Positions 1 to 62,126 of a stretch of DNA of 64,000 nucleotides are shown here, one piece after another. The DNA comes from Amoebophrya sp. A120 (taxonomy: Eukaryota; Protista; Dinoflagellata). The notes beneath the pieces are model-generated. The model was not told where the DNA came from. It made no database searches and saw only the letters and a list, made by a program, of their open reading frames with translations. The stretch covers positions 2,945,161 through 3,009,160 of the forward strand of contig CAJINV010000005.1 in the NCBI GenBank assembly GCA_905178155.1, in the 5' to 3' direction. A program made the translations under genes and the position numbers. How positions within the stretch are numbered: position 1 is the stretch's first letter; every line of letters begins with the position of its first letter.

Positions 1-2030
1 GTTGGCCCTTTAGCACTTCGACCTCGTCGTGGAAATCACCGAGACCGTCCTTGATGGAAACGTGATCCTGCCGGACACGGATCAACTGCCGGTCGGAGCT
101 GTTGAAGTTTTTCTTGTATTGCATAAAAAGTCAGCTACACTACAGAAATCAATTGCTTTGCATTCTTGCACAACGGCGCTCCTGCGCCTGACGTGATGAA
201 CAACATTTTCTGCATGGAGTCCACCTCGTCTTGCTCCCACCACACAAAAACTACTACACAATCCAAAGAAAGATAGAAACAAAAGTTGTCACGTCAAAAT
301 AAGTAAGTAATTATACGCTGCGATCACAGTGGTGACTTTCTGGTTTTCCGATTGCACCTCGGCTAAAAAGGATTCCTTCTCCTTCAATTTCTGCTCCTTT
401 CCCCTCTCGATGTTTTTCTGCACGGCGTACTCCTCGCCGAGCTTGTTCAGCCTCTCGTCCTGCGATTTCATGCTCTGCACGGTTTGCTCCCACTGCTGGA
501 TTAGTCTTTGCCGTTCTTCGTGCAACCGCTTGTATCAACTGCAAAAATGTCTGGGTCTGGACGAAGGTCACAACTTGTAATGCTGTCTGTGGATTCTAAA
601 GAAATTTGTATTGCATGACCGGCAAGACGGGTCGGGTTTGTCCTGCGCGGAGAGGGCATTTCTCATGCGGTAGAGGTATCACAAAGCCCTCTAAAAATCT
701 GTGATGCTACGGCAAGTATTACAGACATCATGGCTCACCCAGAACGTGCATGACAAGTCGAGAAATCTTCCAGACCCAGACATTTTTGCATTTGATAGCT
801 TGAACTCCTCGGCAATTTTGTCCATCTCGATCTGTTGCGACTGCGTCGTCGTCACCTCCTCCTCCACTGCGGCCTTCTTCCCGTTGTTTTCGAGGGTGAG
901 CTTTTCAATCTCCAGGGTCAGCTCGCGGATCTTCTGGTCATCCTGTCGACGATACCTTTTTTTATTGTTTGTAGATTTAGAAGATTCTTGATTTGCAAGA
1001 ATATTGCATGTGTTATTGTGCACACGTGATGCGAAGAGCGCAAAAAAGACCGACTCCGACGTCGTGCTGGAATTATGACAAGCGACTTGTTGTACAAGTT
1101 CAAGTTGTACCTTTCCAGTGCGATTTCATCCTCTTCCTTCTGCCGTGCAGCCAGCGCCCACTGCTCCAATTCCTCTTGGTTCCAGTTCATTTCTAATTTG
1201 AATTGGTCCAACTTCTCGTTGCCCTTGAAAATGTCCGTCTGGATGGCGTTATGCATTGCAAACATGTCTGGGTCTGGAAGAGTTCCAACTTGTGATGCAG
1301 ACTCTGGACCTCCACACAAAAAATTGTATTGCATGAATATCAAGAGCTGCGCACTTCTTGCTTCTACGCAAATAGGCAATTCCTCATGCGGTGGAATAGG
1401 CATTATTAGGCCGGCGCGAATCTTGTAGTGCTTTTGCGTGCATTAGAAACCAATTGCGTGATCCAAAACATGCATGACGAAAAAGTGCCTTTTTCTAGAC
1501 CCAGACATATTTGCGGTTGATAGGTGTTCGCTCGGTCCTTGTAATCTTCAACCACACGCTTCAATCTGACGCATTCACCCTCGAGCCGACCTTTTTTTAA
1601 TGGTATACTGGTACTGCATTTCCCATGCATGAAGACTACTTTTACGCAATCGTGCATGACAAAAAAGAAACATACACGAAACCAACTTGTTCCAAATACC
1701 GACTTGCCGCACGGTCAACTGCCTTAAATGGTCTTCCGTTTCCATTTCTCGTCTTCTCGCGTCCACTAATTGCTGCGTCAACGTGACCTCCTGCTGCACG
1801 TTCTGCAAGTGCTCGGCCATCACCTTTACCCTCTCCGCGTTTTCCCCGATGTGAAAGTCCAACGTGCCCATCTCGCTTTCCGACGCCTTGATGTCCTTGT
1901 CGATCGCCTTCGCGGCATCGGAGGCGAAGGGAGGCAGCGCGTCGCCATCCTGCTCGTAGCCCAGAGCATCATACTCCTCCTCGACGGTGCCCACCGCCGG
2001 CGGCTCGGGATTCAACACCGGGTCCGCCAT
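1..2030 (-). CDS. CCDC39: Coiled-coil domain-containing protein 39 (FAP59, axonemal ruler); 3' end runs off the window; 5 introns seen
   Basis: Spliced translation MADPV...AEHLQNVQQEVTLTQQLVDARRREMETEDHLRQL...KLDQFKLEMNWNQEELEQWALAARQKEEDEIALERYRRQDDQKIRELTLEIEKLT...LHEERQRLIQQWEQTV matches the remembered CCDC39 N-terminal pattern. GT-AG introns at 1591-1699, 956-1110 and 99-316; TIR-element introns at 1250-1522 and 533-797. Confidence 0.9.
533..797. mobile_element. Introner-like TIR element, family A
   Basis: TATCAACTGCAAAAATGTCTGGGTCTGG...CCAGACCCAGACATTTTTGCATTTGATA with 5-bp direct repeat gcttg/gcttg. Removal gives EEFKRLHEERQ. Confidence 0.92.
1250..1522. mobile_element. Introner-like TIR element, family A
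   Basis: TATGCATTGCAAACATGTCTGGGTCTGGAAG...TTCTAGACCCAGACATATTTGCGGTTGATA; direct repeat ggcgt/ggtgt. Removal gives RAN[T/A]IQTDIFK. Confidence 0.88.
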
Positions 2031-5972: not shown

Positions 5973-8900
5973 TCACCCAGAGGACCCACTGTCGCTTGAG
6001 CTCGAGCTCCCGCTATCGGAGGATTGACTGGAGGAGCTGCTCGACGCCTGCTGCTGTTGGCGTCGTCTCTTCGCGGTTTTGCCCCTCTCTGTGGACGACA
6101 GTTGCTGCCGAGGTTTTTTCTGCGGCGGTGCATTGTTAGACCCCGTTTTGGTGGTCGCTGGTCGTTTCTGCGCTGGGGGTGCGGTAGAGGGGGCCTGGGA
6201 GTGTTTGGATCGATAATGACAGCATTTCACTTTGCACTCTTCCTTTGAGAAAAAACAATGTAGTGCAAGCTCCTTAGACAAAACATAATTTGTCAGGCGA
6301 GCTTGAAATGCTCGCCCTCGTCCTGTCGTTGGTTTCCTGAATGTTAACTGTCTGCGCTGGAATGCATTTAGAGCCAGGCTTTTCGAGCGACGCAACACCA
6401 CCCGTTTTAGCAGTGGAGGCAAGCTCAATGTGGGACAAGGAATAGCACGGTTTAGGTCTCTGCGAAGCCACGCGGTGACAAGGAAAGCGGCCAGGGCTAC
6501 AACAGGCACGACTGAAATAAGATTTTCACATTTACCTCTTTCGCCGTCCTGCCCGTAATATTCCTCGCATTTTCTTCGCGGGCACTGGTCCGGTCTTCCC
6601 GCGCGTTCCCTCCCCGCGCACCGCCCTCTCGTGTGCGGATCTCCCTCTCAGACTTCCCTGCATTTATTTCTCGGTCCCGTCCGGCAGTCCCGCGGGCGGA
6701 CCGCTGTGGCTCGGCCGTTCTGTTGTTCTCAGTTTTGTTCCTGTCCCGGTCCCCGGTCGCGCCTGTCCTCGTCGTCGTCGCTGCTGAATTCTTTGCTCCG
6801 GCAGCTGAATTCTTTGCGCCTGCATACTTATTCGTACCACTGTCGTGGTTGTTGTTTCTGTCCCTAGTCGTGCCCCCACTTCCTCGTGCCGGAGGCGAGG
6901 CTTCTTTCAGGTGGTCTCTGTCTTGCCCTCTGTCTTGTCCTCTTTCCCCCCGTCCCCTGCTCTTTTCCTTTTGCTCCACTGCCCTGGTTCTTGGTGCCTG
7001 TTTGTTGTAGTTCCCGTTCCTCGTGGTCGCGCGCCCTCGCTCACTCGCGGAGGACGAAAGGTCCGACTCCTCGTAGCTCTGCGGACTGGGTTTCCGCTTG
7101 TTGCCCCTCTGCTCCGCCCCCGGTCCTCGGGAGTTCACCTGCTTCCGCGTCACGGGCTCCTCGCGGGCGGTGGTGCGGGTCTTGTTCCCTCCCCGGGTCG
7201 TAGTAGTTCTCTGCTCGAAATTTTTCGACCGACTGTCCGCTCGACTCTGCTGTTTCTGTGCAGTTCCGGAGGTCGTCGGGCCATTTTTGGTGGACGTGGT
7301 TGTGGTGTTGAGAGCTTTATTGTGGCCCCGCCCTTGGTGTTGATGTTCCTTGTCCTGCTGATGTGTCGAGGTTTTGATGTTAGCTCCTGATCTGTTGTTA
7401 CTCGCTTTATTCGTCTCTACGAGGGGCTCAGAAGCAGTATTTTTCGTTTTTTTGTTCACTGCAGCCACGGTGCTCGATACCGGTTTGTGGTTGTCCAAAG
7501 CGTTTTTCTTGCCCCCACCAGTTGTCGTGCCTCTTTGACTCTGCACGACCCGCGGCCCCCGCTCCCTCATTTCCGAGCTCTTGCTCTTACTGCTGCTCGG
7601 CGAACTGCTATCCAGGCTGCTGGCCGAACGGTCGGACGGAATCTATGCAAGAAAAAAACTGTGTAAGTGTAGCTCTGTAATGCAAAACATGCAACAGAGT
7701 TACGCCTGTCATGCCAGACAGCCATGAAGTCGTCTTCTCGTGTGTGTTTTCCCTTACAAGCCACGCGTGACAGGTTTACTCAGTGATGTAGAGCAAATTT
7801 GTGATGCTGTCAGCCGAAGATAGTTACACTAACACAGTTTTTTTCCTGGATAGAATCTCAATCTCCTTCACGACTGGAATATAATTCGCGGATGAAACAA
7901 CTACTCCTGCTGCCCGGCCGGCGCTTCTCGCCTGCTTCGCACTCCGGGTCGTGAGTTTCATCTTCGTTTCGTTTCCCGCTGCGGGTCCATTCGTTGTGGT
8001 GACTTTCATGCCATCATTTCTACTGCTTTCGCCGTCGCTTATTGCAAGGAAAAATCCCCCCTCCCCATATTGACGAAGCACGTTTTCGAAGATTTGTGTT
8101 GCTGATTTGAGACCACAAATCGTGCCTGTGTTGGAAGAAAACAACTCCACAGGCTCCACCGCATTATGCAGGCGGTTTGTCATGCTGTTGGGCCTATGGT
8201 GTGGACATTTGTAGTGCTAGGCGCCTAGGTCAAAACCTCTCTACTCAGGCTTGATATGGGTCTGCAGTCCTCTCCAGCAAGACAAATCTCATCTGTGTAC
8301 GCAAATCCAGCATCAGAAACTTCGTTTTGATATGGGGAGGGGGGATTTTTCCTTTTCATATCGCTCCTGTGGTCTTCAATGTCCCTACTCGTCTTCAAGT
8401 TCAAATGATTCTTCAACTCCCGCTGCTCTCGCTCCGCCGCCCGCCGCGCAGCACCATTCGGATTGGGCGAGAGGATGAACCCGCTGTTTCTACTATCCTT
8501 GTTCCCAGTTGTGGTACCACCCCCAGCACCTCGTCGTGTTACGATCGTCGTATTTGTTGTTCCTACTTCACGCTCTACTCCCTCCCGTTTCAGCGGCGTG
8601 CCCCCGCGGCTCGGCCCGCGGGTAATCAACGTCGGAATGCCGCCGGCGCGGAGTCGCTGGAAATCCTCCTCCGGAGAGGAGGTCACCGCCCGGCGCAGAT
8701 TCACCGCCGGGTGCATGTCGTTGCTCAGATTCGGGGACACACGCTTGTCGTTCGAGATGCGCGCCATGCGGTCCCGCTTCGAGAGGAGCACGACCTTTTG
8801 CTGCTTGTTGTCTTCCTGTTCGTTCTGCTGCCGGATGTGGATCGCAGGCACCAGGGTCACCCTGATTTTTTTGCATATCAGTTCCAGTCGTGAGGAATTT

Positions 8901-22200: not shown

Positions 22201-23135
22201 TTGGAGTTCACTTTTGGCCATCAAAAGTGAGCACTTTTTGTGAGGATACGTCACCACTTCTAAAGGATACCGAAAAAGGTCGCTAGAAGTAGACAAGAAA
22301 GCAGCAATTTGTAATGCGGACAAGCTGCAAATAAAAGCAGTACTAGAACGAGAGGGGTCTAGTAGAATAGTGCAGCCTAGCTTCGCGGCTGGCCAGCGAA
22401 CGTTGTCACCCGACGACGAGTGACCATCAAAATTTTTTTTTTGAAAAAAAAATCTAAAAAAATCAAGAGAAAATCGGGACGGGGGTGCCATCTGAGGTCG
22501 CCCAGCTCAACAAATGCTGGCTCAGCATGACAAGTTTCTCAGCTCCTAGGTGTTCTCTATTCTGCATGACAAACTGCGCTTCTGCATCACAGAGAAACGG
22601 AGCTCTTGGGTAACGTGCATGACAGATTTAAGAGTCATGCCGAACAAGCATGACAAGCATGAATTCTTCCAGACCCAGACATTTTTACATTTGATAGACT
22701 CCCGGGCGACCGCGACCGGGAAGTGGAGGAAGCTTTAGACGCCGCCTTGGACGCGGGTCTCACGGCAACACGACGCGCCTGCGGTTTTGCGTCCTTCGCA
22801 GGACGAGCAGCTCCCTTCGAAGTAGCTTGTGGCTTCGTCGTGGAGGAGGTCTCTTGCGCAGCTGCGCTGGGTTTTGAAGTAGATTCTCCGGGCCCTCGCA
22901 CCTTCGGCGGGATCATGGGACTGCCCTCCGCGGCCTTGCGCCGCACCTCCGCCACCACCGCCAGCAGGCCGCGGGCGCCCGGACCGAGCGGACTAGATTT
23001 CGCTGGTGGTGGCCCGGGGGCGGAAGAGGCAGCACTAACAACGAGGCCCTTGTTCTCGCCACCGGTTGTTGTACCTGCCGGCGTCGTCGCCCCCTTCTGC
23101 GCCGCGAGCGCGCTGCGAAACTTGTCGGCTAGCAT
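10214..23135 (-). CDS. Very large (about 3400 aa if one gene) low-complexity, probably disordered protein; 6.6-kb terminal exon
   Basis: The 2201-aa ORF joins upstream ORFs in frame across TIR elements 16839-17089, 17369-17676, 21308-21586 and 21628-22696 and GT-AG intron 18784-19086. The junction near 19289-19608 is not resolved, so two genes are possible. Confidence 0.65.
16839..17089. mobile_element. Introner-like TIR element, family A
   Basis: 30-bp perfect TIR TATCAAATGTAAAAATGTCTGGGTCTGGAA; direct repeat gccgc/gccgc. Confidence 0.95.
17369..17676. mobile_element. Introner-like TIR element, family B
   Basis: TATCGGAAGGAAAAATCCCCCCTCCCCATATC...GATATGGGGAGGGGGGATTTTTCCTTTTGATA; direct repeat cgtcg/cgtcg. 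Confidence 0.93.
19289..19608. mobile_element. Decayed TIR element or intron
   Basis: Imperfect inverted ends (TGTTGTCCCAGAAG...TGTGATG versus TGTGGTCCCGGGAG...TGTGATG) between two coding segments; no clean direct repeat. Confidence 0.45.
21308..21586. mobile_element. Introner-like TIR element, family C
   Basis: TATCCTGAGTAAAAACGTACCCACACCAGAGT...ACTCTGGTGTGGGTACGCTTTTACTCAGGATA; direct repeat tcccg/tcccg. Confidence 0.94.
21628..22696. mobile_element. Introner-like TIR element, family A (252-bp subfamily), carrying a nested insertion
   Basis: Perfect family A TIRs; direct repeat gactc/gactc. Length 1069 minus 811 (insert) minus 6 (insert duplication) equals 252, the same as the copies at 41849 and 51191. 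Confidence 0.93.
21700..22510. mobile_element. Non-autonomous foldback/MITE-like element nested in an introner
   Basis: TIR TTGAGCTGGGCG(A)CCTCAGATGG at both ends; target duplication caaatg at 21694-21699 and 22511-22516; further internal inverted repeats. Confidence 0.88.
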
Positions 23136-45852: not shown

Positions 45853-47835
45853 ATGGCCTCGCTCCGCCCAGCGGGGGCGACCTCGGAGCAGGAAAACCGC
45901 GCCGCCGACCTCGATCGAAGCCGGACGGCGGTGAGAGAGAAACTGCTGAAGGACTTGCTCAGCTCGGACGAGGACAAAGCCGGCCCTTCCCCGGCGGCCG
46001 CGCATAAGAACGCGGAGGCTTCCGAGCAGCTGGACTCCCGTTCCGCAGCCGGGCCGCACCGCGAGCACGACTGCGACCCCGGCAACCCTTGTCCCCCAGC
46101 TTCGAGCAGTGCGTGCCCCTCGGGAAAAACACCTACGTCGCGGCTCCCGAACGAAGGCGAACTATCTTCGTCCTCACGATCAGAGAAGTCGCAACCCGCC
46201 GGGGTTCCTCCCCCGGCCGCAATCGCCGACCGGCTCGAAGCCGCGCTCTTTGAGCAGAATCCCGGCAGCGCCTACCTCCCCCGTGTATCAAGGTGAAACG
46301 TGCCCGGCCCCCGGAAGTCGGGCATTTTTCTGAAATACAAAGTTTTTCAATGGATCTTTTCTTGCGGGAGACGACCATCAGTCTGCCCGATGTAGATTCT
46401 AGGCGAGCAGAGTATCTTCTGCATGATAAGCCCGGCTGTTGCCGGATTTTTATATTTTTTGCATAGACAGACTCTTGCTCTGCTGTATCGAAAACTTGTG
46501 TAGATGCTGCATGCAACATAACAAGTGTCCCCATTGGAAAGCTTTGCGATGTTGTTTCGCGTTCGGGGGTAGAGGCGTTTCTCAATGCCATAGCGTGCGC
46601 GCGAAGTCCTCGCGGGATTGCGCCAGCCGCACCTGCAGCACGTCCGGAAGCAGCTGTTGTCAGGCGCGGTCGATCCAGCCGTGGTGGCCGGTTGGGACGC
46701 GAAGAAATTTTGGAATCCGCAAAAGCGGCGCGCGGGGGCGGGGAAAGTGAACGGCAGCGAAGCAACGAGCGGTAGCGAGTCTTCTCCGGATCTTGTTCGG
46801 GAAGCGAATCGAAGTCGCGAAGAGAATCGAAGTGGAAACCCTAGAGTCGATTCATCCGCAGAGGACCGCAGCGGGGGGACGAGCGGCAGGCAGCAAGAGG
46901 ACCACGCCAATCCGAAAGGGAGTGCGGTCGACGGGGAAAGCGACAAGAAAGCGCAGCAGAAGCAAGAAAGCCGGGCGCAGAAGAAGCGGAAGCACATTCA
47001 GGATAGCTTTCCGCACTTCGACCCCAACTTGGCCTGTGAACAGTGCGAAACTATCGGATATCAACCGCATGCGAAAACTTTACTTCTTTATTAGGTGGCC
47101 TGCAGAGAACTACATGACGCGCTGCTCGTTTCAAAAATCACTTTGCAAGCGAGCATTTTTATGCTATGGGGGCAACATCCATGTATTGATTCGTTATTCG
47201 TCGTATGGTCTTTCAGATTCACGAAGTGGTTTTTTATTTTTTGTGCATACCGACGTCCGCTACGCGATTCTACGAGACACGTGGATGTGGCCGCGGTGTG
47301 GCGGTTATCAAATGCAAAAGTGTCTGGGTCTGGAAGGTTGCAAGGTTTGTCATGCTAGTCTGGCATGACTCTGCACTCTGTATTGCGTGGCCACCAAGAG
47401 GCCCGCTTGCCTGTCATGCAAGAGCGCAGTTTCTCATGCGAAATACGCAGCACAAGAGCACGAAAAAACTTGTCATGCTTGGCGGTGCATTACAGGGCAC
47501 TTACTTTTCACGGACTTGCATCATAAGTTTCCAGACCCAGACAGATTTGCATTTGATAGCGGCAGAGGCGGAATGATGTCTGCAGACACTGGGAGGACAC
47601 TTATCATTCGGGAAATACTAGATTGATATCCTGTTTGTGAAGATGCAGAGGTATGAGAACGCGGAGAGCCTCGGGCGAGTTGACTGTGCCCATATCGCAT
47701 GGCTTATGCTCAGGTTTAGTTTGCATTCGTTTTTGCATCACAAACATGATTAAATCTTGTATGTTTTGCCGAATAACGTTAATGCTGTATTGCGAAGCTT
47801 GTCAGCACGAGGGCGTGCATCACAGTTTTGCGTAA
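45853..47835 (+). CDS. Divergent TFIIS-like protein: central domain plus C-terminal Zn ribbon
   Basis: After removing four TIR introns: AIADRLEAALFEQNPGSAYLPRAREVLAGLRQPHLQHVRKQLLSGAVDPAVVAGW (TFIIS central-domain-like) and LACEQCET.DVRY...SADTGRTLMLYCEACQH (Zn ribbon). Confidence 0.7.
46286..46592. mobile_element. Introner-like TIR element (diverged, C-like)
   Basis: TATCAAGGTGAAACG..CCCCCG versus CGGGGG..CGTTTCTCAATGCCATA; direct repeat ccgtg/gcgtg; removal restores the frame. Confidence 0.8.
47059..47249. mobile_element. Decayed introner-like intron
   Basis: TATCA...GCATA ends; removing the element plus 5 nt restores the Zn-ribbon frame; direct repeat only 2/5. Confidence 0.5.
47306..47558. 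mobile_element. Introner-like TIR element, family A
   Basis: TATCAAATGCAAAAGTGTCTGGGTCTGGAA...TTCCAGACCCAGACAGATTTGCATTTGATA; direct repeat gcggt/gcggc. Confidence 0.92.
47602..47775. mobile_element. Older introner-like TIR element
   Basis: TATCATTCGGGAAATACTAGATTGATATCCTGTTTGTGA versus reverse complement TATTCGGCAAAACATACAAGATTTAATCATGTTTGTGA; direct repeat acact/acgtt. Removal gives RTLMLYCEAC. Confidence 0.7.
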
Positions 47836-48005
47836 ATGATAACACTTTATGCTGTTTAAATTATAAACAAAGCATTGGCAACGCATTGAGAAAAAAACCA
47901 TAGCGCCACCGAGGAAAAACCATTTGACAAAACATGACACAACGTTTCGACATGAAGGGTGCTCTTGCGATAGCGAGCCGGCGCAAAAACAAAGCGAAAA
48001 AGTTA

Positions 48006-50109: not shown

Positions 50110-53100
50110 ATGATTGATTCTTCCCCGCGCAACATGAGCTACGATGCAGATGATGACGATGTCGTTTACAACGACGACAAGGATCTCGAGGCGGCTTTTA
50201 CGGTGGCGGAACAAGAAGACGGCTCTGATATAACCTCGTCCAGCCGGCATCTGAAGTCCCTCGTGGAGGAGGACATTTTTTCCCAGACGCAGGTAACCGC
50301 CGCCCGGCGCAAGAAGCTCGCCCTGGAGTGGAGCCACCTCTCGTTCAATGTCAAGGGCCGGCGCATTCTGCACGACTGCTACGGGAAGGTCTACCCCGGC
50401 CAGGTGACCGCCCTGATCGGCCCCTCCGGGGCGGGCAAGAGCACGCTGATGAACCTGCTAGCGGCCCGGCAGGGCTGGGGACCACGGTTTCGGAGCGAGA
50501 GTCAAGAAGCGAAGAGCAAAATTTTTGCAGGATCATCCGGAATAAAGCAAGCCGACCAGGAACAAACAAAAGTACTATCCACTTTCGCGGAGCCGGAAAA
50601 AGAAAAGCGGCTGAAGCAGCAGCTTCTCGTTCATCCGGGCGATGATGAAATGAATGGCGCTGAAGTAGAAGAGGAGTCCGAGTCACAGGACCCGGATCCT
50701 GAGGGCGACGAGGACGAAAACGAAGATGATAAAGATTTTGATATCAAGATGGATCTGGGAACTACCAAGAAACGACAAGCAACGACCACCAGCAGAACCA
50801 GTAGCTCTAGAAGTACTCGTTCCACGAAGATCACCACCGGCATTCTTCCCGGGGCGCAGATCCTGTACGGGCGCAAGCCGGTGAGCTTTGAGGAGCTAAA
50901 GTCCTCGGTGGGGTACGTGATGCAGCAGGAGGCGCTGATGGAGATTATCATGCAGAAACAAGCAGGCAAGGCATATTTGTGACCCAGAAAGGAGTTAACA
51001 GGCAAAATGAGCCCATAGCAGGATCCTGTTTAGGATGCGCAGTGCAGATTTTTCTGTGTATTAATTTTTGCATGACAACCATGCCCTGTGCCTACTTTTT
51101 TCTGTGCGATAGAGACGGAGACCGTCGAAGAACAAATCCGGTTCGCGGCGGCGTTGCGGACCCCCCTGCTGAACGTGCCGCCGAATGCGGTATCAAATGC
51201 AAAAGTGTCTGGCTCTGGAAACTTGTGATGCTGGGTGGCGTATCATGAGGAGGCCACAAGTTCTGGCTCAGCATGACAAGTTGCTGAGCTTCTAGGTGTT
51301 GCCTATTCTGCATGACAAACTGCGTTTCTGCATGACAGAAAAATGGCGCTCTTGGGTAACGTGCGTGACAGATTTGAGAGTCATGCCAGACAAGCATGGC
51401 AAACATGCACGCTTCCAGACCCAGACATTTTTACATTTGATATGCGGTGAAGCGGAGCAACTGCAAAAAAACCCGGTACTCCGAGGAAAACGCGGAAAAC
51501 GTGCTCGAAACCCTGGGGCTGCAGAGCGCGCGCGCCACGAGGACCGGTGCGCTCTCCGGGGGGCAGAAGAAGCGGGTCTCCGTGGGCGTGGAGTTGGTCA
51601 CGAGACCGGCGATTGTCTTTCTAGACGAACCCTCCACGGGCTTGGACAGCTACAGCACGCTCCGGCTCTTCTCTATCAAATGCAAATATGTCTGGATCTG
51701 GCAAGGGTGAACCTGTATTGCGTGTTTCGCATTCCTAAAAAATCTGTATGGCATAAGCAGCAGATAAAGCACCACACTTTCGTCATGCAAAAATGCACAC
51801 TCAGTCATGGCCACTAAGCACTACAAGTTTCAAGACCCAGACATATTTGCATTTGATATTCTCCCACCTGCGCCAGTACGCGGTGGAGCAGAACGCGATC
51901 GTATCGTGAGAAAAAAATGTTACAGTTACACGTTTGTTGGAGTTTCTGCAACACAAATTTTCTCTGTGTGGCAGAGAGAACTTGGAATGCGAAGATCATA
52001 AAGGGAAAACAGGAAGGAAACGAGGCTCCCAAGCATTTCCTGCATGAGAAAGGTTGTCTGTGTTGCCGCTCTTGCAACACAATGTGTAACTGTAACACTT
52101 TTTTCTTGCGATAGATCGTGGTGTGCACGGTGCACCAACCGAGCTCGGAGGTTTTTGACTACTTCGACCGTGTGATCTGCATGCGACAGGGGGCGGTGCT
52201 GTTCCAGGGGTGGAACGGAAAGGCGGCAAGGGCGTATTTGCGCGAAAACGGGCTGTCCGCGACGTCGATGATGCAGCAGGAAGAACAGGGAGGGAACGAC
52301 AAGAGCGCTGCTCGAATGAACAGTAGTATGAGTCCGCCGGAAGACGTTTTATCCTGAGTAAAAACTACTACGTGGCCACTTCTTCCGCAGAGGTGGGACG
52401 CAGGTGATTTTGAACACTGCTAATGCGCATCCGAATGTTGAGAGGCATCTTTAGTCGTGTAGATCTGGCGTTACAGATGTAATGCTCTAGGTAAACAGGG
52501 TAGTATACGAGTTTTTGGGCTTTGATGTGAAGATCATGCCGCCTAATTTTTTTACCTGCACTACTACACAGCATGCGTAAAGAAACTTGTCAACATGCAA
52601 AGGCCCCAAAAGTTCTGGACTTGTCTTGCAGACACCACTGCCCGTTTTGACGATAGAGTCCTTGTGGGCGGGACGTTTTTACTCAGGAAAAACCAAACCG
52701 CGATCGCTATCCCTCCATTCGGCGGCCTTTGGACTCGGAGTCACCAGCAACACAAATTCTGTGCAAATAACAACAACTACCCGGCTAACGCAGCAAAAAA
52801 CTTTCCTGGACGAGATGCACGGGGCTGAGAAATCCAAGCTCGTCGTCTGGAACACAATCAAAGGGTTCCTCGACCCGATGGAATTCAACGGGGTCCGAGG
52901 GATTCCCGAGGGGGTGAACATCGCTTCCTGGCTCCTCCTCCTGGCGCAAATGGTCGACGAGGAGACCGCGATGCGTTATCGTGTTTAAAAAATTCGTCCC
53001 CATCCCATAGTTGTAATGCAAATCTGCATGCTGATAATGTTTCTCATGCGGAGCCCCATGAGAAGCATTGTCTAGTCGCGTTTTGGATTTTGTCATGCTC

Positions 53101-55191
53101 CAATCAGCATGATAGTGCTAGATCTGTGATGCTGCTGAACTACCTCTGAAACAGTACTACACTCCGAGTTCAGATTTGTCATGCAAAACAGTCAAAACTT
53201 GTGGACTTGTCCAGCCGATTTTTCCCCATCTTGACTCTGGGGCGGTGGGGACGTTTTTCCATAGGATATGCGTTTGGCGTTGCTCACGTCCCGTGTCTAC
53301 GAGCGCACCGAGCACCCGGTGCTACCGGTTGACCCAGAAACGGGTCGAAGTAAACACCTTCTCCCGATGCTGATGCGCAACAGCTTGTTCGGGGGGGAGC
53401 TGGACCTGTTCAGTGATGGGAACAATTCAACCACATCCGGCTCGACCCCCTCGTCGAACAAAAGCGGATCGGGGTTCGAACCGAGACCCAATCTCTTACT
53501 GGAGCAGACGGCCGAGATCAAGTGCAACCTCGACGTGGGGCTCGTGCCCAACCTGCTGCGCCAGAAGCATTTGAGCGAACAGTACCTGCGGAACTTAAGT
53601 GGCTATTTGGCGGCCGACGACATGGGCAAGCAGGAGGTGTATGACCAACCGCCACCGGCCGCGGGCGCAAACTTGGGAAATTTCTCCTGCCAGTTCCGCA
53701 TTCTGGCGTACCGGGAATTGACCCACCTGTGTCGCTCGCGCGGGATGCTGCTGGCGCGACTGCTGATTCCGGCGATTCAAATCTTTTTCTACGGGATCAT
53801 CTTTTTCCTGGCCGGCCGGCAGCTGCTGTCCGGGTCCGTGACCGGGTTTCCCGGGCTGGAGTGGCTCGGGGTGGCCCGAGAAGATAACATAACCGGGAAT
53901 AATAAACTCGAGACGGAGCAGCAGTGGAACAAAAAGTTGATGGAAGTGTTCGGCGCCACGGGGCAGCCGTTCTACACGTTGACCACGCAGTCGGCCGGGC
54001 AGTTGATCCTGACCATTCCGCGAGAGCGGGTGCTGTTTCTGCGGGAATACTCGTCCGGGATGTACAGCATCACGACCTACCTGTTGGCGAAGCTCAGCGT
54101 GGAGCTGCTGGTGATTTTCGCCCAGTCGGTGCTTCTGCTTCTCCTGCAGTGGATCCTGGTCGGGTTCGCCGCCGAACTGATTCCCGCGTTTTTCGGCCTG
54201 CTCCTCATGAACTCGCTGGCGTCCGGGTCTTTAGGGATGTTCATTTCCTGCCTGGTTGCCGACTACGGGTATCCTGGGTAAAAACGTACCCACACCAGAG
54301 TGTTAATGCAGATTTGCAAAAACAGGAAGACTTGTAATGCGCATCACATGAGAGCCATTTCCAATCGTGTTTTGGAATTTGTGATGCTGTGAACAGGATG
54401 AGCCGATGAATCTGTGATGCGGCTGCACTGGCTAACCTGCACTACACTGCAAAGTGCAACTTGTCAGGCGTGACTCACAAAACTCCTAGGTTTGTTGCAA
54501 AATCCCCATCCTGGCTCTGGTGTGGGTACGTTTTTCCTCAGGATAACGGGGAGGTTGCTCTCTACATCCAGCCCATTTTTTTCCTCACGCTCAGCTCCGC
54601 GTTGTCCGGCAATTTTCGGCCCATCACGGAGATTCCCTGGGCGCTGCGGTTATGCATTGCAAATATGTCTGGGTCTGGAAGGATGCAACGTTTGTCATGC
54701 ACATTTCGCATGACTCCTGGTCCTGACGTCTGTGATGCATGCCCTAGCATCACAGATTTCGCGAGGGCTACTTCATGCCTATACCGCATGAGAAACGCCC
54801 TCTCGGCGTGGCAAAAATTGGACCCGTTTTGCTGTTCATGCAATACAGATTTTTGTAGTATTCACATGCAGCATCACAAGTTACATGCCTCCAGACATCC
54901 AGGTATATTTGCACTGGATAGCAGTGGACGGGGTACATTTTCCCCACGGCGTTCATGACGAAGACGCTGGATTTCTTACTCTATCAAAACGTGGAAAACC
55001 AGCTGTGGCCGGGCGAAGTGAGTGACCAAGCCCGGGACGTGCTGATCGCGGCTCGGGACAAGAGATTCGAAAAAAGGGCGCTGTCCAGCGAGATTTTGCT
55101 CACGAACTTTTTCGGGCTGGCGGCACTCTTTGTTGGCTACCGGGTGCTGGCGGGGATCGTTCTCCGGGTAAACAGCAGGACGATGTACTGA
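50110..55191 (+). CDS. ABCG (White-family) half-transporter, paralog 1; 8 TIR-derived introns
   Basis: Walker A GPSGAGKST; Q-loop GYVMQ; signature LSGGQKKRVSVG; Walker B VFLDEPSTGLD; CTVHQP; membrane domain with ERVLFLREYSSGMY. Confidence 0.92.
50946..51111. mobile_element. Introner-like TIR element, family D
   Basis: TATCATGCAGAAACAAGCAGGCA...TGCCTACTTTTTTCTGTGCGATA; direct repeat gagat/gagac; related to 40730-40889. Confidence 0.85.
51191..51442. mobile_element. Introner-like TIR element, family A (252-bp subfamily)
   Basis: Family A TIRs; direct repeat tgcgg/tgcgg. Confidence 0.95.
51674..51858. mobile_element. Introner-like TIR element, family A (185-bp variant)
   Basis: TATCAAATGCAAATATGTCTGG...CCAGACATATTTGCATTTGATA; direct repeat ttctc/ttctc. 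Removal gives TLRLFSHLRQYA. Confidence 0.93.
51902..52113. mobile_element. Introner-like TIR element, family E
   Basis: TATCGTGAGAAAAAAATGTTACAGTTACAC...GTGTAACTGTAACACTTTTTTCTTGCGATA; direct repeat gatcg/gatcg. Confidence 0.92.
52350..52690. mobile_element. Family C element with damaged right end and no matching direct repeat
   Basis: TATCCTGAGTAAAAAC...GTTTTTACTCAGGAAA. Confidence 0.7.
52977..53268. mobile_element. Introner-like TIR element, family C
   Basis: TATCG..CGTCCCCA...TGGGGACGTTTTTCCATAGGATA; direct repeat tgcgt/tgcgt; body homologous to 61134-61412. Confidence 0.88.
54270..54545. mobile_element. Introner-like TIR element, family C
   Basis: TATCCTGGGTAAAAACGTACCCACACCAGAG...CTCTGGTGTGGGTACGTTTTTCCTCAGGATA; direct repeat acggg/acggg. 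Confidence 0.94.
54651..54920. mobile_element. Introner-like TIR element, family A
   Basis: TATGCATTGCAAATATGTCTGGGTCTGGAAG...ATATTTGCACTGGATA; direct repeat gcggt/gcagt. Confidence 0.88.
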
Positions 55192-56209
55192 ACCATCGGA
55201 AAGATGAGCAGGACCGCACTAGAATCGAATGGAAGTAGAGGAAACGATCGTGTCCGAGCCTGGCGTGCTCCGCTTTCTCCTGTGTGTAGTGTTTCGTAGT
55301 ACATGCAAAATATTGTCATTGAAAAGAGTATGAGTAAGTGCTAGTAGCGTATATTACAACATCAGAAGTACTTCGAGTTGTAGAGTGAATATCTTACCGA
55401 TGAACTGCGAAACGCAACAAAAATGAGTACCTGCGAAACGCAAAAACACTGAAAATTAGTGACCGCAGCTGTTGCTGCGCGCACAGAAGGAGAGTCGACC
55501 AGAAGTACGCAATGAATGGACGAACAAGCGAGGATAATATGTAGATTTTGCATTCTTCGATTCACGTCGTGCACACGACGGCAGTTTCCCGTGAGGCGCC
55601 ACAACCTTTTCTCTTCTTACGGGCGGACCGCAGATGAAGTTCCGGTGGCGAGGATTTGTTGCGCCGATCTTCACCACAGGATCGACTCCAACACTTTCAG
55701 ATGCGGAAATGTACTTTAAGTACCACAATGATCAATGTGCCGAAGAGGATCTGATAAGGAGGATCTGTCTACCTGCAACGCTCGTGGTTTGCCATGCCAT
55801 CATCGGACCTTGCTCAGCGGGAAGAAAAACGCGCATGCGAAAAAGAGTCTCGGTTCTGATCTCGCACCTTTGAGACCTGCTCAGCAAAGGCGGAATTTCG
55901 GTGTCCACAAGATGTTGGTCTGTTGAGAAGAGGATCGAAGACAAGTGGGTCATCTGTGATTTCTGAAGGTTCTGAATCGATTACTTACTTTTTAAACTAA
56001 CATCTAGTACAGAGCAAAAATCCGTATACCAGCTTTGATGCGCTCGCATTTCAACAGGTCAAGTTTGTTATTTTCTAGCGTTTTTTTATTTTTCTCTTTG
56101 TCTTCCACGGCGCAAACGCGACACTTTCTATTGATCGATGAACTGGTTCGATATTCAGGATATTACAGTCGCATAGACCGCGTCGGCCCCACCGCCGACG
56201 CACATCACT

Positions 56210-59200
56210 ATGGAGGGCGGCACGCTGTCCTATCCGGATGGCGGGGACCACCCGAAATATTTCATTAACAAGTGCGCCGAAGAGCAGGCCGAGGTGGATG
56301 CAAAGCATTGCGAGGAAGAACGGGTCCAAACGCTCGAGCTGCTCACCCGGCGCAACCGCAGCAGCTCTTTGCGCGGGGTTTCTCTCGCATTAAGCACGGC
56401 GACTGCGGCGCAAAAGGGAGAAACTGCGGGGCCGCGAGGAGGACTTCTACCGGGCGGCAATATTGCACCGGCGCAGCAGCAGCAGGACGTCACTACACGA
56501 AGGAAAACGCCACATCAATCGCCCAGGACTGCTAGTCCGCCGCAGAGCAATCTTTTCGACATAGATCAAGACGATGGTGCTGTCGACCGATTGGAAAGTT
56601 TACGCAGGATCAGCGACGACTTGGTTCACCTCACGGGAGGAGCAGATGATGAACACGTCGGCGACCAGCTGCCGTTAATATTGCCTCCCCTTGCCATCGG
56701 GGACGAGGAAAGCGAAGACTCGGCTCTGCTTCGCTGGCTATGAAATGCAAAAGCATCGTACTAGTATAAATCGCATGACAAATTCCCTCAGCATGAAAAA
56801 TGGAATTTGTAATGCGGATTTAGGTTAAGATGGAGATTTGTAATGCATGATTGCGATTACTACGAGTGCGATACTTTTGCACAGGATACTGGCACCGGGC
56901 GAACAAATTGATGTTCGAATTTCGCAACATCTCCTTCGAAGCAGCTATCACGATGAAAAATCCCCCCTCCCCAAATCAAAACGAAGTTTCTGATGCTGGA
57001 TTTGCGTACACAAATCAGGTTTGTCTTGCTGGCGAGGATTTCAGGCCCATATGAAGCCTGAGTAGATAGGTTTTGGCCTAGGCGCTTAGCATGACAGACG
57101 TCTACGCTGTAGCTAAAACAGCATGACAAACCGGCTGTAGAATGCGGCGGAGCTTGTGGAGTTGCCTTCGTGCAACACAGAGACGATTTGTGGTCACAAA
57201 TCAGCAACGCAAATTTTCGAAAACGTGCCTTGTCAACATGGGGAGGGGGGATTTTTCCTCTCAATAGCAGCTGGCTCATCATCTTCCTCCGGAAAGAAAA
57301 CGTCAACGGCTGCAACCGGGATATCAAATGTAAAAATGTCTGGGTCTGGAAGAATCCAAGATTTGTGATGCAGGTTTTCCATGACCCATGAGGTCTGAAA
57401 TGCGAGACCCAGCATGACAGATTTTTTGAGGTCTCGATCATGCCTTTCCTGCATGAGAAACTCCCTCTCAACTTGGTCAAAAGCGGACAGCTTTTGGCAC
57501 TCACGCAACACAGATTTTTGCATCATTTAGATTTAGCATGACAAGTTCTAATCTTCCAGACCCAGACATTTTTGCAATCCATACGGGAACCGGAAAAGCA
57601 AAAAGCCGAAGAAACTCATCCTCGACAATTGCTTCGGGTGTTTCCGTATCAAATGTAAAAATGTCTGGGTCTGGAAACTTGTGATGCTGGGTGGCGTATC
57701 ATGAGGAAGCCATAAGTGCTGGCTCAGCATGACAAGTTTCTGAGCTTCTAGGTGTTGCCTATTCTGCATGACAAACTGCGTTTTTGCATGACAGGAAATT
57801 GGGGCTCTTGGGTAACCTGCATGACAGGTTTAAGAGTCATGCCAGAGAAGCATGACAAGTCGCGCATTCTTCCAGACCCAGACATTTTTACACTTGATAT
57901 TCCGGCCCGGCGAGGTGACCGCGTTGATCGGACCGTCGGGCGCGGGGAAGTCCAGTTTGATGAACCTGCTCGCCGTATGCCCAGTGAAAACTACGCTCCC
58001 GCCCCAGCAGATTTGTGATCTTGTGCAGATTATTCGCTGTATTTATTCTTGCGCGAATATAATTTGTATTGCGCCTGCTCGTCTCTATGAGATCGAGATG
58101 CATGATCGTGGCCGTGAAGTAGATTTGTGGCATTTGTAAAATACTGTATTAACAGGCGTTGCCGAAATTGTGAAGATGCGGATATCGTTTCTAATCACTA
58201 CAACTAAGACCGAAGTGGTCGTGCATGCGTCAGCACTTCTACTCTAGACTTCTGGATTTTTCATTTCTGTAGCAAGATGACTAGGTGCTGGTGGGGACGC
58301 TTTTCCTGAGGATACGCCGCGCGGGTAAAGGGGTTGGAAAAGCTCAGGAAAAACGCGGTTCGGTACGGCGAGCGCGGGGTCACCGGTCCGGAACTGCAGG
58401 ACTCGGTGGCGTACGTCCTGCAAGACGACGTTTTCTTTCCGCACCAGACGGTGCGGGAAACTTTGGATTTCTACGCCCGGCTCCGCCTGCCCCCCTCCAC
58501 CAGCTACGAGCAGAGACGGGAGAACGTGGAGGAGGTGTTGCGAACCTTGCAGTTGTCCCACATCGCGGATCAACTGGTCGGGGACCAGAGCCTGAAAACC
58601 ATCTCCGGCGGGGAGCGGAAGCGCGTGGCCGTCGGGTGCGAGCTGATCCGGCGCCCGACGGTGCTGATGCTGGATGAGCCGACGAGCGGGCTGGATTCGT
58701 TGTCCGCGTTGAAACTGCTGGTGTACCTGAAAGAGATCGCGGTGGCGCAGCACGCGATCATCGTCTGTACCCTTCATCAGCCGGAGGCGCAGGTTTGGGA
58801 CCAGGTGGACCGGGTGCTGTGCATGCGGGAAGGCCGAGTCTTGTTCCAGGGCTGGACGCGGGAGACCAGCGGGCTCGATCGGGGTCTCAGTCCGGCGGGG
58901 CGGGAAGATGAGACCGCTAAAGAACTTGCAAGTAGCCCGAATACAACGAGTGGTCAAAATGGAAGTAGTAGTCCTACAAGGACTTCGAGACGAGTAGCAG
59001 CTCTGGGACGAGCTATCATAGAAGTAGACACAGGAGCGCCGGGAATAAGTCCTGCGCCGTTTGGACGAGATAATCCATCTCCCACCAGTGGATCGCGCGG
59101 GCACACCAGCTCCGGTAGTGCAAAAAAGGATCTCAGCGTCATATGCAACTTCCTGCAGACGATCGGGCATCCAATGCCAGCTGGCTACGGCTGCAGCGAT

Positions 59201-62126
59201 TGGCTGGTTTATTTGGCACAGACAGTGAGCGATGCGGAGGCGGATTTCATTTGCGAGCAGACAGCGGCCGTGTTCGAAATTAGCTTCCCACCTGTAGATG
59301 AGGAGGAGGCGGGGATACCTTTGATTCCTCCACCCGATGACGGCGACGTTGCTGCCTTGAGTTCTCCGGAGCAGAGCCTCCACGGGCGCAAGAGTGCGGC
59401 GTCCGGGAGCACTAGTGCTTTTCGCGGCTCGCCTGTGAATGATTCGTCTGAGAAGGACTGGAAGATCAGCGTCACCAGCGGGCAGCCAAGAGTCTCCTCA
59501 GACCAGAACAACCGACACATCGAGACGACCCCGCAGTCTGTGCCTAGCAGTTACCCGGCTAGAGGCAGCAACGACGCGCTCCCAGGTGGAGCCAGGGGCT
59601 CCAATGTGCTGCACCTCCCACGACCGCGTTTTAACACGATAAAATCAGAAATTCACCACCCGACCGGGTCTCGATTGGTGCGAGCGCAGTCGACACTGTC
59701 GCAGGTGGAGTTGCAGCCAGTTAGGAATTTGATAAGAGCGGTAAGCTTGATCAAGGACAACAGGAAAGTTGGCTGCCCGTTGACCGCGCTGCAGCGGGCG
59801 CACGCACAAAGACCGCGAAATCGAAGGACGGGGTATAATCTCCACCATGAACAAGAGGTCTATCCGCGGGGACAAGGAGACACTAGCAGCCCAGAGACCG
59901 ATGAAGCAGATGAGAGTTCGAGTACCCATCTTCTGGCTGCGGTAAGACATGAAGGGTCTTCGGAGCTAAATGGGCACCGTGGGCAAGAAGAAGACAAATC
60001 CTATGTGCGCAAATCCCTGCCCCCGTTCTTCACAAATCAGTTTCCCGCGCTGCTTGCGCGCATCCTCCGGGAGGATTGGCGGCGAAAAACCCCGATGCTG
60101 ATGCGGTTTCTTTCCCCGGCGGTGCAAACGGCCATTATGGGCGCGGTGTTTTGGCAGATGGGCACGGACTTGTACAACGGCAGAACCGTAACGGGAGAGC
60201 AATTGCAAACAGAAGCAGACTTCGCGTCCGCGATCGTGAATTTGAACGGCGCGACGTTGAACACCTACACGGTGCTGCTCTTCACGGCCGCGGGCCAACA
60301 GGTGAGTTCTTTGGGCCGGGAACGGCCAATGTTCTTGCGGGAGTACACCAGCGGGATGTATTCTCTGTGGACCTACTTGCTGGTGCGGATGATCGCGGAA
60401 ATTGTCGTGATGGTATAATAGTCTTGATTTGCCCACCAACCTCACGTGAAAAAAATCGATTTTCATAAACTTAAGTCCGCTCGGGGGGAGGAGGTTTTGC
60501 GTTCTAACGCAGATGTTGTTGTCCACAGGCGCGGGGGTCAGCTATTCTTGATGTGCTGTACAACGACATCGCTAGGTGTTAAACAGGAACATTTTTGTAA
60601 ACAAATGAGCGGGACGAGCTGGGGCAACAAGCGTAAGTCTAAAATGTACACAGGACGAGCAGTCATCCAAGAACTACTTAATATAATTGCGTGCAACTAC
60701 ACAAATTCACTTTCATTATCACAGCCACTCCAAGTCGGCCTGATCTACATCATCCTCTACTTCACGCTGGGTCTCTATGGAAGCGTCAGAATCGAAATCG
60801 ACAAAGTCGAAAAATTTGTAATGCATAAGATCGATACCAGTTGGACCCAGGTCCTATAGTCGGCGCATGACAAATTTTCCCCGCGCCGGAAGCGAGTTTG
60901 TCATGCTGTTTAGGGCAAAAGAGCTCCCTGCTGTCATGCTAGTCAGCAGCCCAACACTTGACCCTTGCCAGGACTAGAATCCGCCTCCCTTGCATCCTCT
61001 GCAATAGAGTCGCTTTTTGTGTGGCATTTTATGCATTACAGATAATTTCGACTTTGTCAATTTCGATTCTGACACTTCCATAGTCTCGGCGCACACACCG
61101 CCCCCTGGTGGATCATGCTGTCCATGTTCCTGATATCATTTGTAAAAACGTCCCCACCCCAGAGTTGCAATGCAAATCTGCATGCTGAAAACGTTTCTCA
61201 TGCGGAGACACATGAGAAGCAGCCTCTAGTCGTGTTTTTGGATTTGTGGTGCTAGAATCAGCATGATGTGCTAGATCTGTGATGCTGCTGAACAAGCCAA
61301 ACATGATTACACTACGAGGCCAAACTTGTCATGCGCAACAGCAAAAGCTGACAGATTTGTCTAGCAGATTTTCTACCTTGACTCTGGTGTGGGGACGTTT
61401 TTACTCAGGATACCTGACCGGTCTTGCCGGCGGCTCCATCGGCCTCTTCCTCGCCTCCGCGACGGCCAACCTGCCCGGAACCGCGATCGTTTGGGCGCCG
61501 TTTGTGCTCACGACGATCCCCAACAGTTTTGCCAATCCGTTTCGCCCCATCTCGCAGATTCCGAAATTCATATCCTGGCTGCAGTGGCTCGTACCGATCC
61601 GCTTCGCGTATAACCTCCAGGGGTGGTTTTTGTTCTCCGAGCTGGGCAAGGATCTAAAATTCGCGGCAACGGATCCAGCCCGGTATCCGATGCAAATATG
61701 TCTGGGGCTGGAAGGATGCAACTTGTCACGCTAGTGCCTTCGGACTGTAAGTACATAAAATCTGTCTTGCATGCGAACTGCAAAAGAGATCCAGTTTTTG
61801 CTACGCGGAGAGGGCATTTTTCGTCCGGTATGGGCATATCGGAAAGCCCTCGCAGAATCTGGGATGCTAAAGGGCATGCAACACAGACATTATGAGCCGT
61901 GGGTAATATGCATGACAAGCCTGGCACTCATCCAGACCACCCAGACATACTTGCAATGCATACGCGGGCCGACATCGCGATTGCGGCGAGAGACTCCTTC
62001 TTCGAAAGTGAGTCCACTGTGTCGGATATCGGATTGTATCTAGGCGCGATTGTGGCCTTGCTGTTTGGCTTTCGGTTGTTCGCGGGCTCTTTTCTGCTGT
62101 GCAACAGCCAGAAAATGACGAGGTGA
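56210..62126 (+). CDS. ABCG (White-family) half-transporter, paralog 2; 8 TIR introns plus one GT-AG intron (60413-60724)
   Basis: Walker A GPSGAGKSS; AYVLQDD; ISGGERKRVAVG; LMLDEPTSGLD; CTLHQP; ERPMFLREYTSGMY. Start codon tentative. Confidence 0.92.
56739..56888. mobile_element. Introner-like TIR element, family F
   Basis: TATGAAATGCAAAAGCATCGTACTAGTA...TACGAGTGCGATACTTTTGCACAGGATA; direct repeat ctggc/ctggc. Confidence 0.85.
56946..57266. mobile_element. Introner-like TIR element, family B
   Basis: TATCACGATGAAAAATCCCCCCTCCCCA...TGGGGAGGGGGGATTTTTCCTCTCAATA; direct repeat gcagc/gcagc; reverse-complement homolog of 8040-8360. Confidence 0.92.
57322..57583. mobile_element. Introner-like TIR element, family A
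   Basis: Family A TIRs; direct repeat cggga/cggga. Confidence 0.92.
57647..57899. mobile_element. Introner-like TIR element, family A (252/253-bp subfamily)
   Basis: Family A TIRs; direct repeat ttccg/ttccg. Removal gives CFGCFRPGEVTALIGPSGAGKS. Confidence 0.95.
57976..58314. mobile_element. Introner-like TIR element, diverged family C
   Basis: TATGCCCAGTGAAAAC..CCCCAGCA...TGCTGGTGGGGACGCTTTTCCTGAGGATA; direct repeat cgccg/cgccg. Removal gives NLLAARVKG. Confidence 0.85.
60776..61082. mobile_element. Introner-like TIR element, family G (TIR about 50 bp)
   Basis: TATGGAAGCGTCAGAATCGAAATCGACAAAGTCGAAA...TTTCGACTTTGTCAATTTCGATTCTGACACTTCCATA; direct repeat gtctc/gtctc. Confidence 0.93.
61134..61412. 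mobile_element. Introner-like TIR element, family C
   Basis: TATCATTTGTAAAAACGTCCCCAC...GTGGGGACGTTTTTACTCAGGATA; direct repeat cctga/cctga. Confidence 0.92.
61684..61962. mobile_element. Introner-like TIR element, family A
   Basis: TATCCGATGCAAATATGTCTGGGGCTGGAAG...CCAGACATACTTGCAATGCATA; direct repeat cccgg/cgcgg. Confidence 0.87.

What the first reader, a model, noticed from the sequence alone, without database searches (positions are those of the whole stretch)
533..61962. Multi-family transposon-introns with one end rule: 5-bp direct repeat, TAT...ATA, no GT-AG needed
Seen: about 28 clear elements of 150-340 bp in at least 7 TIR families with unrelated TIR bodies, family A having 12 copies. 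All sit inside coding sequence, start TAT, end ATA and are flanked by a 5-bp direct repeat. Deleting the element plus one repeat copy restores conserved motifs, including the ABC Walker A region, CCDC39 and apyrase. The repeat at 51674 (TTCTC) has no G, so no register gives GT-AG. Established: IR/DR-bearing non-canonical introns (introners) are reported in Amoebophrya, and their excision machinery is not, to my knowledge, identified. Inference: removal is guided by the terminal RNA stem and the TAT/ATA ends, and one mobilising enzyme class making 5-bp duplications serves all families. No transposase is encoded in this window.
Basis: partly seen in the sequence, partly recalled or inferred. Interest (0 to 1): 0.9.

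Follow-up and report, generated by a model that had tools for sequence, protein, structure and literature searches.

The report
Transposon introns cut by fixed ruler
These are the already described hairpin-ended mobile introns of the marine parasite Amoebophrya; transcript data show them removed without normal splice signals, and natural mutants place the cuts one base before and four bases after the hairpin, a rule that likely reflects a loosened spliceosome measuring from the RNA stem.

Summary
In detail: 30 elements bounded by TAT…ATA (28 clear, 2 degenerate), almost all with a 5-bp repeat, in 8 end families plus 3 singletons. None has GT-AG in any equivalent register. Transcript-like contigs lack all 16 elements of two ABCG genes plus exactly 5 nt, while DNA contigs carry them. 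The elements themselves are known: Farhat et al. 2021 described TAT-starting IR/DR introners in Amoebophrya A120 and left the border position unknown. Three things here were not found in print. (1) Mismatched repeats fix the cut: intron = N-TAT…ATA-NNNN. One element with no repeat is cut at exactly that place, so the repeat is not needed. (2) That register gives a 5' end NUAU, matching the host's commonest predicted canonical donor GUAU; the 5' U is never mutated (0 vs 7 at the 3' end). (3) All families share an internal motif, RAAYYTGTVATGC, often spaced 31-32 bp, which points to one mobiliser. Spliceosome versus endonuclease/ligase is unresolved (about 55:35). No transposase was found.

The parts
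533..797 (-). family A element in CCDC39 gene; repeat GCTTG exact
1250..1522 (-). family A element in CCDC39; mismatched repeat, orthologues show the upstream copy kept at position 3
7644..7852 (-). element, end cluster 4
   Evidence: frame only
8040..8360 (-). element, end cluster 2
   Evidence: frame only
16839..17089 (-). family A element
   Evidence: frame only
17369..17676 (-). element, end cluster 2
   Evidence: frame only
21308..21586 (-). element, end cluster 3
   Evidence: frame only
21628..22696 (-). family A element enlarged by a nested insert
21700..22510 (.). nested unrelated TIR element (ends TTGAG…CTCAA, 6-bp duplication); no Pfam hit in two ORFs
35181..35321 (.). element, end cluster 1; gene strand uncertain
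40730..40889 (-). element, end cluster 11, in GDA1/CD39 apyrase gene
41849..42100 (-). family A element in apyrase gene; repeat mismatch is synonymous
46286..46592 (+). degenerate element missed by the first scan; 1-mismatch repeat; no internal motif
   Evidence: frame only
47306..47558 (+). family A element; coding context unverified
47602..47841 (+). singleton element; coding context unverified
50946..51111 (+). element in ABCG gene 1; GAGAT/GAGAC; transcript keeps the downstream copy at position 5 (k<=4)
51191..51442 (+). family A element, removed from transcript contigs
51674..51858 (+). family A element, repeat TTCTC without G, removed from transcript contigs (3 of 4 runs)
51902..52113 (+). 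element, end cluster 7, removed (3 of 4 runs)
52350..52690 (+). key natural mutant: flanks CGTTT/AACCA (no repeat), right end AAA; unique joint 52348->52695, intron 52349-52694
52977..53268 (+). element, end cluster 3, removed
54270..54545 (+). element, end cluster 3, removed
54651..54920 (+). family A element; GCGGT/GCAGT; transcript keeps the upstream copy at position 3 (k>=3)
56739..56888 (+). element, end cluster 1, ABCG gene 2; removal inferred from contig piece lengths
   Evidence: table 8
56946..57266 (+). element, end cluster 2; removal inferred from contig piece lengths
   Evidence: table 8
57322..57583 (+). family A element, removed
57647..57899 (+). family A element just before Walker A, removed
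57976..58314 (+). singleton element just after Walker A, removed
60413..60723 (+). ordinary GT-AG intron starting GTAT, removed in the same contigs (internal control)
60776..61082 (+). element, end cluster 6, removed
61134..61412 (+). element, end cluster 3, removed
61684..61962 (+). family A element; CCCGG/CGCGG; transcript keeps the upstream copy at position 2 (k>=2)

Best explanation
These are Amoebophrya introner elements that are removed from transcripts at one fixed geometry, N-TAT…ATA-NNNN, likely by a loosened spliceosome that reads the 5' end as N-U-A-U and measures the 3' cut from the predicted terminal RNA stem. Shown: the element plus 5 nt is missing from transcript-like contigs, no GT-AG is available, the repeat is dispensable in one case, and both orientations occur. 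Well supported but resting on few sites: the 1-nt/4-nt register. Because exactly 5 flanking bases leave with the element, a 5-bp target duplication restores the host message at any site and in either orientation. Inferred: the identity of the splicing machine. Also inferred: that all families are non-autonomous DNA transposons moved by one transposase, probably of the integrase-like DDE class, binding the shared subterminal motif.
For: Removal: 14 element joints listed, each element+5 nt, in 3-4 of 4 runs, plus 2 inferred from piece lengths; the joined exons give open frames of about 1000 and 1100 codons. Register (k = bases of the upstream 5-mer kept in the exon): RNA gives k<=4 (50946), k>=3 (54651), k>=2 (61684), k=4 uniquely (52350); the intersection over 14 joints is {4}. 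Orthologues give k>=3 at 1250 (T in 3 of 4 close relatives, V in 1, A in none) and k>=4 in a Rab gene of locus L057 (Ala in 4 of 4). Spliceosome hints: predicted AT-rich GT-AG introns begin GTAT in 12 of 25 against 5.7% of internal GT sites; the first TIR base is mutated 0 times at the intron 5' end and 7 times at the 3' end among 303 strand-assigned of 404 pairs (p=0.016); all 18 'predominant' non-canonical sites in Farhat Table S4 have T second; U1 and snRNP27 were undetected but most other parts present, and loss of SNRNP27K goes with +4 U donors (PMC10581693 abstract). Stem: z -2.7 to -9.9 in 16 of 16. One mobiliser: motif in 406 of 411 elements and all 12 families, 14 vs 1 per kb; modal same-direction spacing 31-32 bp in 9 of 12 families; orientation to gene 328:328.
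Against: No AG, no branch-point consensus seen, and no covariation between first and last intron base (chi-square p=0.18, n=166). The predicted stem pairs the UAU itself in 13 of 16 folds, so it would have to be unwound. Five of the 7 3'-end mutations are A->G and keep a U-G wobble, so the asymmetry could reflect pairing; only 2 break the pair. The three partial RNA constraints alone would fit k=4 by chance about 28% of the time; the exact value leans on one junction plus the Rab test. The codon-likelihood test on 44 mismatched repeats was inconclusive. The canonical-intron set is ab initio, 25 kept of 200 noisy predictions, and may hold degenerate elements. Table S4 may reflect aligner preference. 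Transcript evidence is contigs from 1 study and 2 samples, with RNA status guessed by the tool. No transposase or autonomous copy was found.
Confidence: 0.55

Rival explanations
1. Same elements and same fixed register, but removal is by a dedicated non-spliceosomal endonuclease plus ligase that recognises the closing stem with 1-nt and 4-nt overhangs, as proposed for euglenid nonconventional introns.
For: Strong terminal stems; no AG, no +1/-1 covariation, random repeat composition; orientation independence. Euglena introns have a similar offset code, N3CDG…CHGN5-6|R, and are released as circles. The 5'/3' asymmetry is partly explained by G-U wobble.
Against: The register lands on the host's own GTAT donor pattern; two pair-breaking 3' mutants exist and no 5' one; the Euglena signature is absent; Fritillaria shows a U2 spliceosome can handle such introns.
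Confidence: 0.35
2. No single register: the cut slides within the direct repeat from element to element, and k=4 is a coincidence of a few sites.
For: Only 6 informative sites. Published tables give varied duplication lengths and splice modes for A120 families (22 of 58 rows seen); Farhat Fig. 3 legend calls the splice sites variable.
Against: All 6 informative sites, from 4 end families and 2 genomes, agree with k=4. Published variability is expected from aligner ambiguity inside repeats.
Confidence: 0.08
3. The elements are excised from DNA (like ciliate internal eliminated sequences) and the contigs lacking them are DNA.
For: One repeat copy is retained; runs X1-X4 are only guessed to be RNA. 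Most joints of the DNA-type run X5 were not displayed.
Against: The same contigs skip a GT-AG intron and stop near gene ends. X5 has unbranched contigs running through elements 50946, 52350 and 57976 at depth 22-25. At 52350 there is no repeat to recombine.
Confidence: 0.02

Closest known systems
Introner elements / non-canonical introns of Amoebophrya sp. A120 (Farhat et al. 2021, PMC7789003; Gozashti et al. 2025, PMC12130899)
   Same: IRs starting TAT, 7 variable bases, then AAA; 3-5-nt direct repeats (5 bp in Fig. S19 legend); about 240 nt; many families; RNA-supported; no transposase found in A120.
   Different: Nothing in kind. Added here: uniform 5-bp duplication, fixed cut 1 nt before and 4 nt after the stem, dispensable repeat, invariant U at +2, shared internal motif. 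Those papers leave the border unknown or list mixed modes.
Euglenid nonconventional introns (Nomura et al. 2025, PMC12501133)
   Same: End-to-end stem, cuts at fixed unequal distances from a paired motif, no GT-AG, suspected MITE origin.
   Different: Signature N3CDG…CHGN5-6|R against N-TAT…ATA-N4; euglenid introns are released as circles; product unknown here.
Fritillaria borealis MITE-derived non-canonical introns (review PMC11282704; bioRxiv 2025.08.15.670264)
   Same: TIR/TSD-bearing introns without GT-AG, reported as spliceosome-excised.
   Different: They have preferred ends (AG-AC/AG-AT) and duplicated U2AF; here the 3' end is free sequence.
Ginger2/Tdd integrase-like DNA transposons (PMC2836005)
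   Same: TIRs; TDD-4/5 make 5-bp duplications; an A120 TIR introner family with integrase-like ORFs is reported.
   Different: Ginger termini are TGTNR, not TAT; no coding copy was found here.

Membership tests
Amoebophrya A120-type introner | Terminal IR starting TAT, then 7 variable bases, then AAA | tested here: met
   TAT was the scan criterion; A at positions 11-13 in 184-199 of 211 ends was not
Amoebophrya A120-type introner | 3-5-nt direct repeat at the boundary | tested here: met
   28 of 28 clear elements within 1 mismatch at 5 bp; 355 of 380 in fetched loci, with score thresholds that favour matching repeats
Amoebophrya A120-type introner | Repeated in families | tested here: met
   12 end clusters of 3 or more among 411 elements
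Amoebophrya A120-type introner | Removed from transcripts without GT-AG | tested here: met
   14 joints listed and 2 inferred of 16; 0 of 30 with GT-AG
MITE / non-autonomous TIR DNA transposon | TIRs, constant duplication length, no coding capacity, random orientation | tested here: met
MITE / non-autonomous TIR DNA transposon | Cognate autonomous element with transposase | tested here: inconclusive
   None in the window or in ORFs of the few long or unpaired copies scanned; the whole genome was not available
MITE / non-autonomous TIR DNA transposon | Empty orthologous DNA site | not tested
   Orthologous proteins have no extra residues, but their DNA was not seen
U2 spliceosomal intron | GT-AG ends | tested here: not met
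   0 of 30; 156 of 166 in fetched loci have no GT-AG register
U2 spliceosomal intron | U at +2 and host-like donor positions +2 to +4 | tested here: met
   with the wobble caveat
U2 spliceosomal intron | Branch point, lariat, snRNP dependence | not testable with these tools
   No raw RNA reads covered these genes
Euglenid nonconventional intron | Stem joining the two ends | tested here: met
   predicted folds
Euglenid nonconventional intron | N3CDG…CHGN5-6|R signature | tested here: not met
   Ends are N-TAT…ATA-N4
Euglenid nonconventional intron | Release as full-length circle | not testable with these tools
   needs dedicated RNA libraries
Ginger2/Tdd transposon | TGTNR termini | tested here: not met
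   TAT termini against PMC2836005 passages
Programmed DNA elimination (IES-like) | Element absent from a DNA form of the locus | tested here: not met
   Unbranched DNA-type contigs through three elements; joint list was truncated

The most novel reading that the evidence does not exclude
Amoebophrya runs a U1-less spliceosome in which an intron-encoded RNA stem replaces G+1, the AG and the usual bridging, with cuts set 1 nt before and 4 nt after the stem.
Probability: 0.4. Interest if true: 0.85.

Novelty: already known. Interest (0 to 1): 0.58.

Why it matters
How tens of thousands of Amoebophrya introns are removed without GT-AG has been open since 2021, and the border itself was reported as unknown. 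A fixed border lets one design lariat or circle RT-PCR, re-annotate junctions, and build reporter mutants. The shared internal motif is a bait for the missing transposase. If a spliceosome does the work, it shows the machine can drop both terminal guanines and use RNA geometry instead.

Tried and rejected
No whole genome was held, so no genome-wide search for autonomous copies. The run search listed no holder on record as RNA. Raw RNA runs X8-X10 covered only element ends, not these exons: no use for junctions. My first guess that 52350 sat inside a GT-AG intron ending at 52794 was refuted. Family A end pattern in viral contigs: 0 matches. Codon-likelihood and AT/GC direction tests on mismatched repeats: inconclusive. 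Enrichment of G at +1 or AG at the end, and +1/-1 covariation: not seen beyond chance. Unfiltered ab initio intron prediction (200 calls) was mostly noise; only the 25 AT-rich, motif-poor ones were counted. A third orthologue test (L059) returned only the locus's own fragment. Long copies (L010, L026, L036/L038, L074, window 21628) look like ordinary elements with inserts; ORFs scanned from four of them gave no Pfam hit. Rfam: 0 hits in the window. A 2026 review of non-canonical splicing does not mention Amoebophrya. No folding or complex jobs were run, as no candidate enzyme was in hand.

Full report
OBSERVATION. A scan for TAT…ATA with a 5-bp flanking repeat found 27 hits at end-alignment score 26 or more, against 1 in 20 Markov shuffles. 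In 22 the repeat is exact and in 6 it has one mismatch; lengths 3, 4 and 6-10 never give an exact repeat. Two degenerate copies, 46286 and 52350, bring the total to 30. They fall into 8 end families and 3 singletons, family A having 12. None of the 30 has GT-AG in a register that gives the same product. Flanking exons hit CCDC39, GDA1/CD39 and ABC transporter models. The nearest named relative of the CCDC39 protein is from Amoebophrya sp. A25 at 82%.

REMOVAL FROM RNA. Contigs of four runs (RNA by the tool's guess; 1 study, 2 samples) were laid on 50100-62200, which holds 16 of the 30 elements. Fifteen of 19 joints were displayed: 14 skip an element plus exactly 5 nt and one skips a GT-AG intron. 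Piece lengths in the same contig account for the other two elements (231 nt = 52+50+58+71). Joined exons give open ABCG frames of about 1000 and 1100 codons. The contigs behave as transcripts, since they also skip the GT-AG intron and stop near gene ends. A DNA-type run has unbranched contigs through elements 50946, 52350 and 57976. The other 14 elements were not tested against RNA.

WHERE THE CUT LIES. With an exact repeat the junction is ambiguous, but mismatches resolve it. Let k be the number of bases of the upstream 5-mer that stay in the exon. RNA gives k<=4 at 50946, k>=3 at 54651 and k>=2 at 61684. At 52350 the flanks share no base and the right end reads AAA, and the joint is unique at k=4. 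The intersection over 14 joints is {4}. Two independent protein tests agree. At 1250, close CCDC39 relatives have Thr (3 of 4; Val in 1; never Ala), so k>=3. In a Rab gene of locus L057, from a related genome, 4 of 4 orthologues have Ala rather than Asp, so k>=4. The intron is therefore N-TAT…ATA-NNNN, and the repeat is not needed for splicing in at least one case. This rests on six sites; a codon-likelihood test on 44 further mismatched repeats was inconclusive.

LARGER SAMPLE. A metagenome scan with the family A end pattern returned 173 loci on JACKZZ contigs and 380 distinct elements. Gene strand came from a codon model; neighbours agreed 85 to 1. Repeat composition is close to random. 156 of 166 have no GT-AG register, and the 8 that are GT-AG at k=4 are about what chance gives. 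First and last intron bases do not covary. Related copies lie with or against the gene equally often, 328 to 328 pairs, so any signal must work on both strands.

WHICH MACHINE. At k=4 the 5' end is N-U-A-U. Predicted AT-rich canonical introns begin GTAT in 12 of 25, against 5.7% of internal GT sites (25 kept of 200, ab initio), and the RNA-confirmed one does too. Among 404 end pairs, 26 have a terminal mutation and 18 of these could be given a strand. The first TIR base is changed 0 times at the 5' end and 7 times at the 3' end; positions 2 and 3 score 2:2 and 5:2 (p=0.016). Against over-reading: 5 of the 7 keep a U-G wobble. Farhat et al. found most spliceosome parts but not U1 or snRNP27, and loss of SNRNP27K is linked to +4 U donors in yeasts (abstract). 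That U+2 is the near-invariant spliceosomal base is recalled knowledge. Against the spliceosome: no AG, no visible branch signal, and a stem that pairs the UAU in 13 of 16 folds. Euglena offers a precedent for a separate, stem-guided route. I put the odds at 55:35.

ONE MOBILISER. The end families are not independent. A motif RAAYYTGT[CGA]ATGC, spotted by eye in the window (98 hits in 7,864 bp of elements, 19 in 56,136 bp outside), occurs in 406 of 411 elements and all 12 families of three or more. Density is 14.0 against 1.0 per kb (overlapping loci counted more than once). 308 of 669 same-direction spacings are 30-33 bp, about three helical turns, and first copies cluster 33-35 or 41-49 bp from an end. 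This fits subterminal transposase sites (inference). Common descent, or an RNA-binding site (the motif often contains UGCAUG, recalled as the RBFOX element), are not excluded. A 5-bp duplication and ends one base away from TGT…ACA suggest an integrase-like DDE enzyme: TDD-4/5 make 5-bp duplications, and an A120 TIR introner with integrase-like ORFs is reported. No transposase was found in 145 of 223 window ORFs of 100 aa or more or in the long copies scanned.

WHAT IS KNOWN. Farhat et al. 2021 (PMC7789003; abstract, sections 10-12, 16, 32, supplement part 2 and passages of Tables S4-S7) describe these elements: TAT start, A-run, 3-5-nt repeats, 29,850 copies in A120. They state that the border is unknown and no splicing signature is clear, although all nine predominant A120 sites in Table S4 have T second. 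Gozashti et al. 2025 (PMC12130899; passages, SI passages, 22 of 58 A120 dataset rows) list mixed duplication lengths and modes. Also seen: PMC12501133 (abstract, discussion); PMC12005148, PMC11282704, PMC2836005 (passages); PMC10581693, PMC11098459, bioRxiv 2025.08.15.670264 (abstracts); PMC13149111 (term search only). Searches listed no paper giving the fixed register or the internal motif. Figures (Farhat Fig. 3, S19-S25 logos), two unsearched Gozashti files, bioRxiv supplements, theses and subscription journals were not visible and could hold part of this.

VERDICT. Real, and already known as a system. The likely new content is the cut rule, the dispensable repeat, the invariant U and the shared motif, which make the open questions of splicing machine and transposase directly testable. 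Interest 0.58.

Noticed in passing
window 21700-22510: An 811-bp TIR element of another kind (ends TTGAG…CTCAA, 6-bp duplication) is nested in a family A copy; the 1069-bp host keeps perfect ends and its removal keeps an open frame.
   Followed up: partly
window about 48020-49200: Long tandem array of a roughly 16-17-bp unit upstream of the first ABCG gene.
   Followed up: no
window 57499-57583, reads of X8 and contigs of X1-X3: An abundant RNA from another locus carries a family A end joined to unlike sequence on its inner side: possibly a half element that cannot be spliced and stays in the transcript (only 30 loose letters seen).
   Followed up: no
loci L001-L173: At k=4, 71 of 148 elements fall between codons (phase 0), an excess like that of ordinary introns; may reflect target preference or the codon model.
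   Followed up: no
Farhat Table S4: All nine predominant A25 non-canonical sites start TT, and A25 repeats start TTA, so the N-U-A donor rule may hold in a second species with different ends.
   Followed up: no
L026 505-1608: A 1104-bp element with its own TIR family, exact 5-bp repeat and the shared motif; interior is low-complexity, no Pfam hit.
   Followed up: partly
window about 44000-45080: A run of about 26 G followed by an AT-rich kilobase between divergent genes; two ORFs overlapping its end gave no Pfam hit.
   Followed up: no
window 10217-16837 (-), 24804-25187 (-), 28392-28766 (-): A 2207-codon ORF with no Pfam hit; Utp12 and BRCT domain hits in two other genes.
   Followed up: no
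window 60383-60753: Low-depth contigs in X2 and X3 retain all or most of the ordinary GT-AG intron.
   Followed up: no
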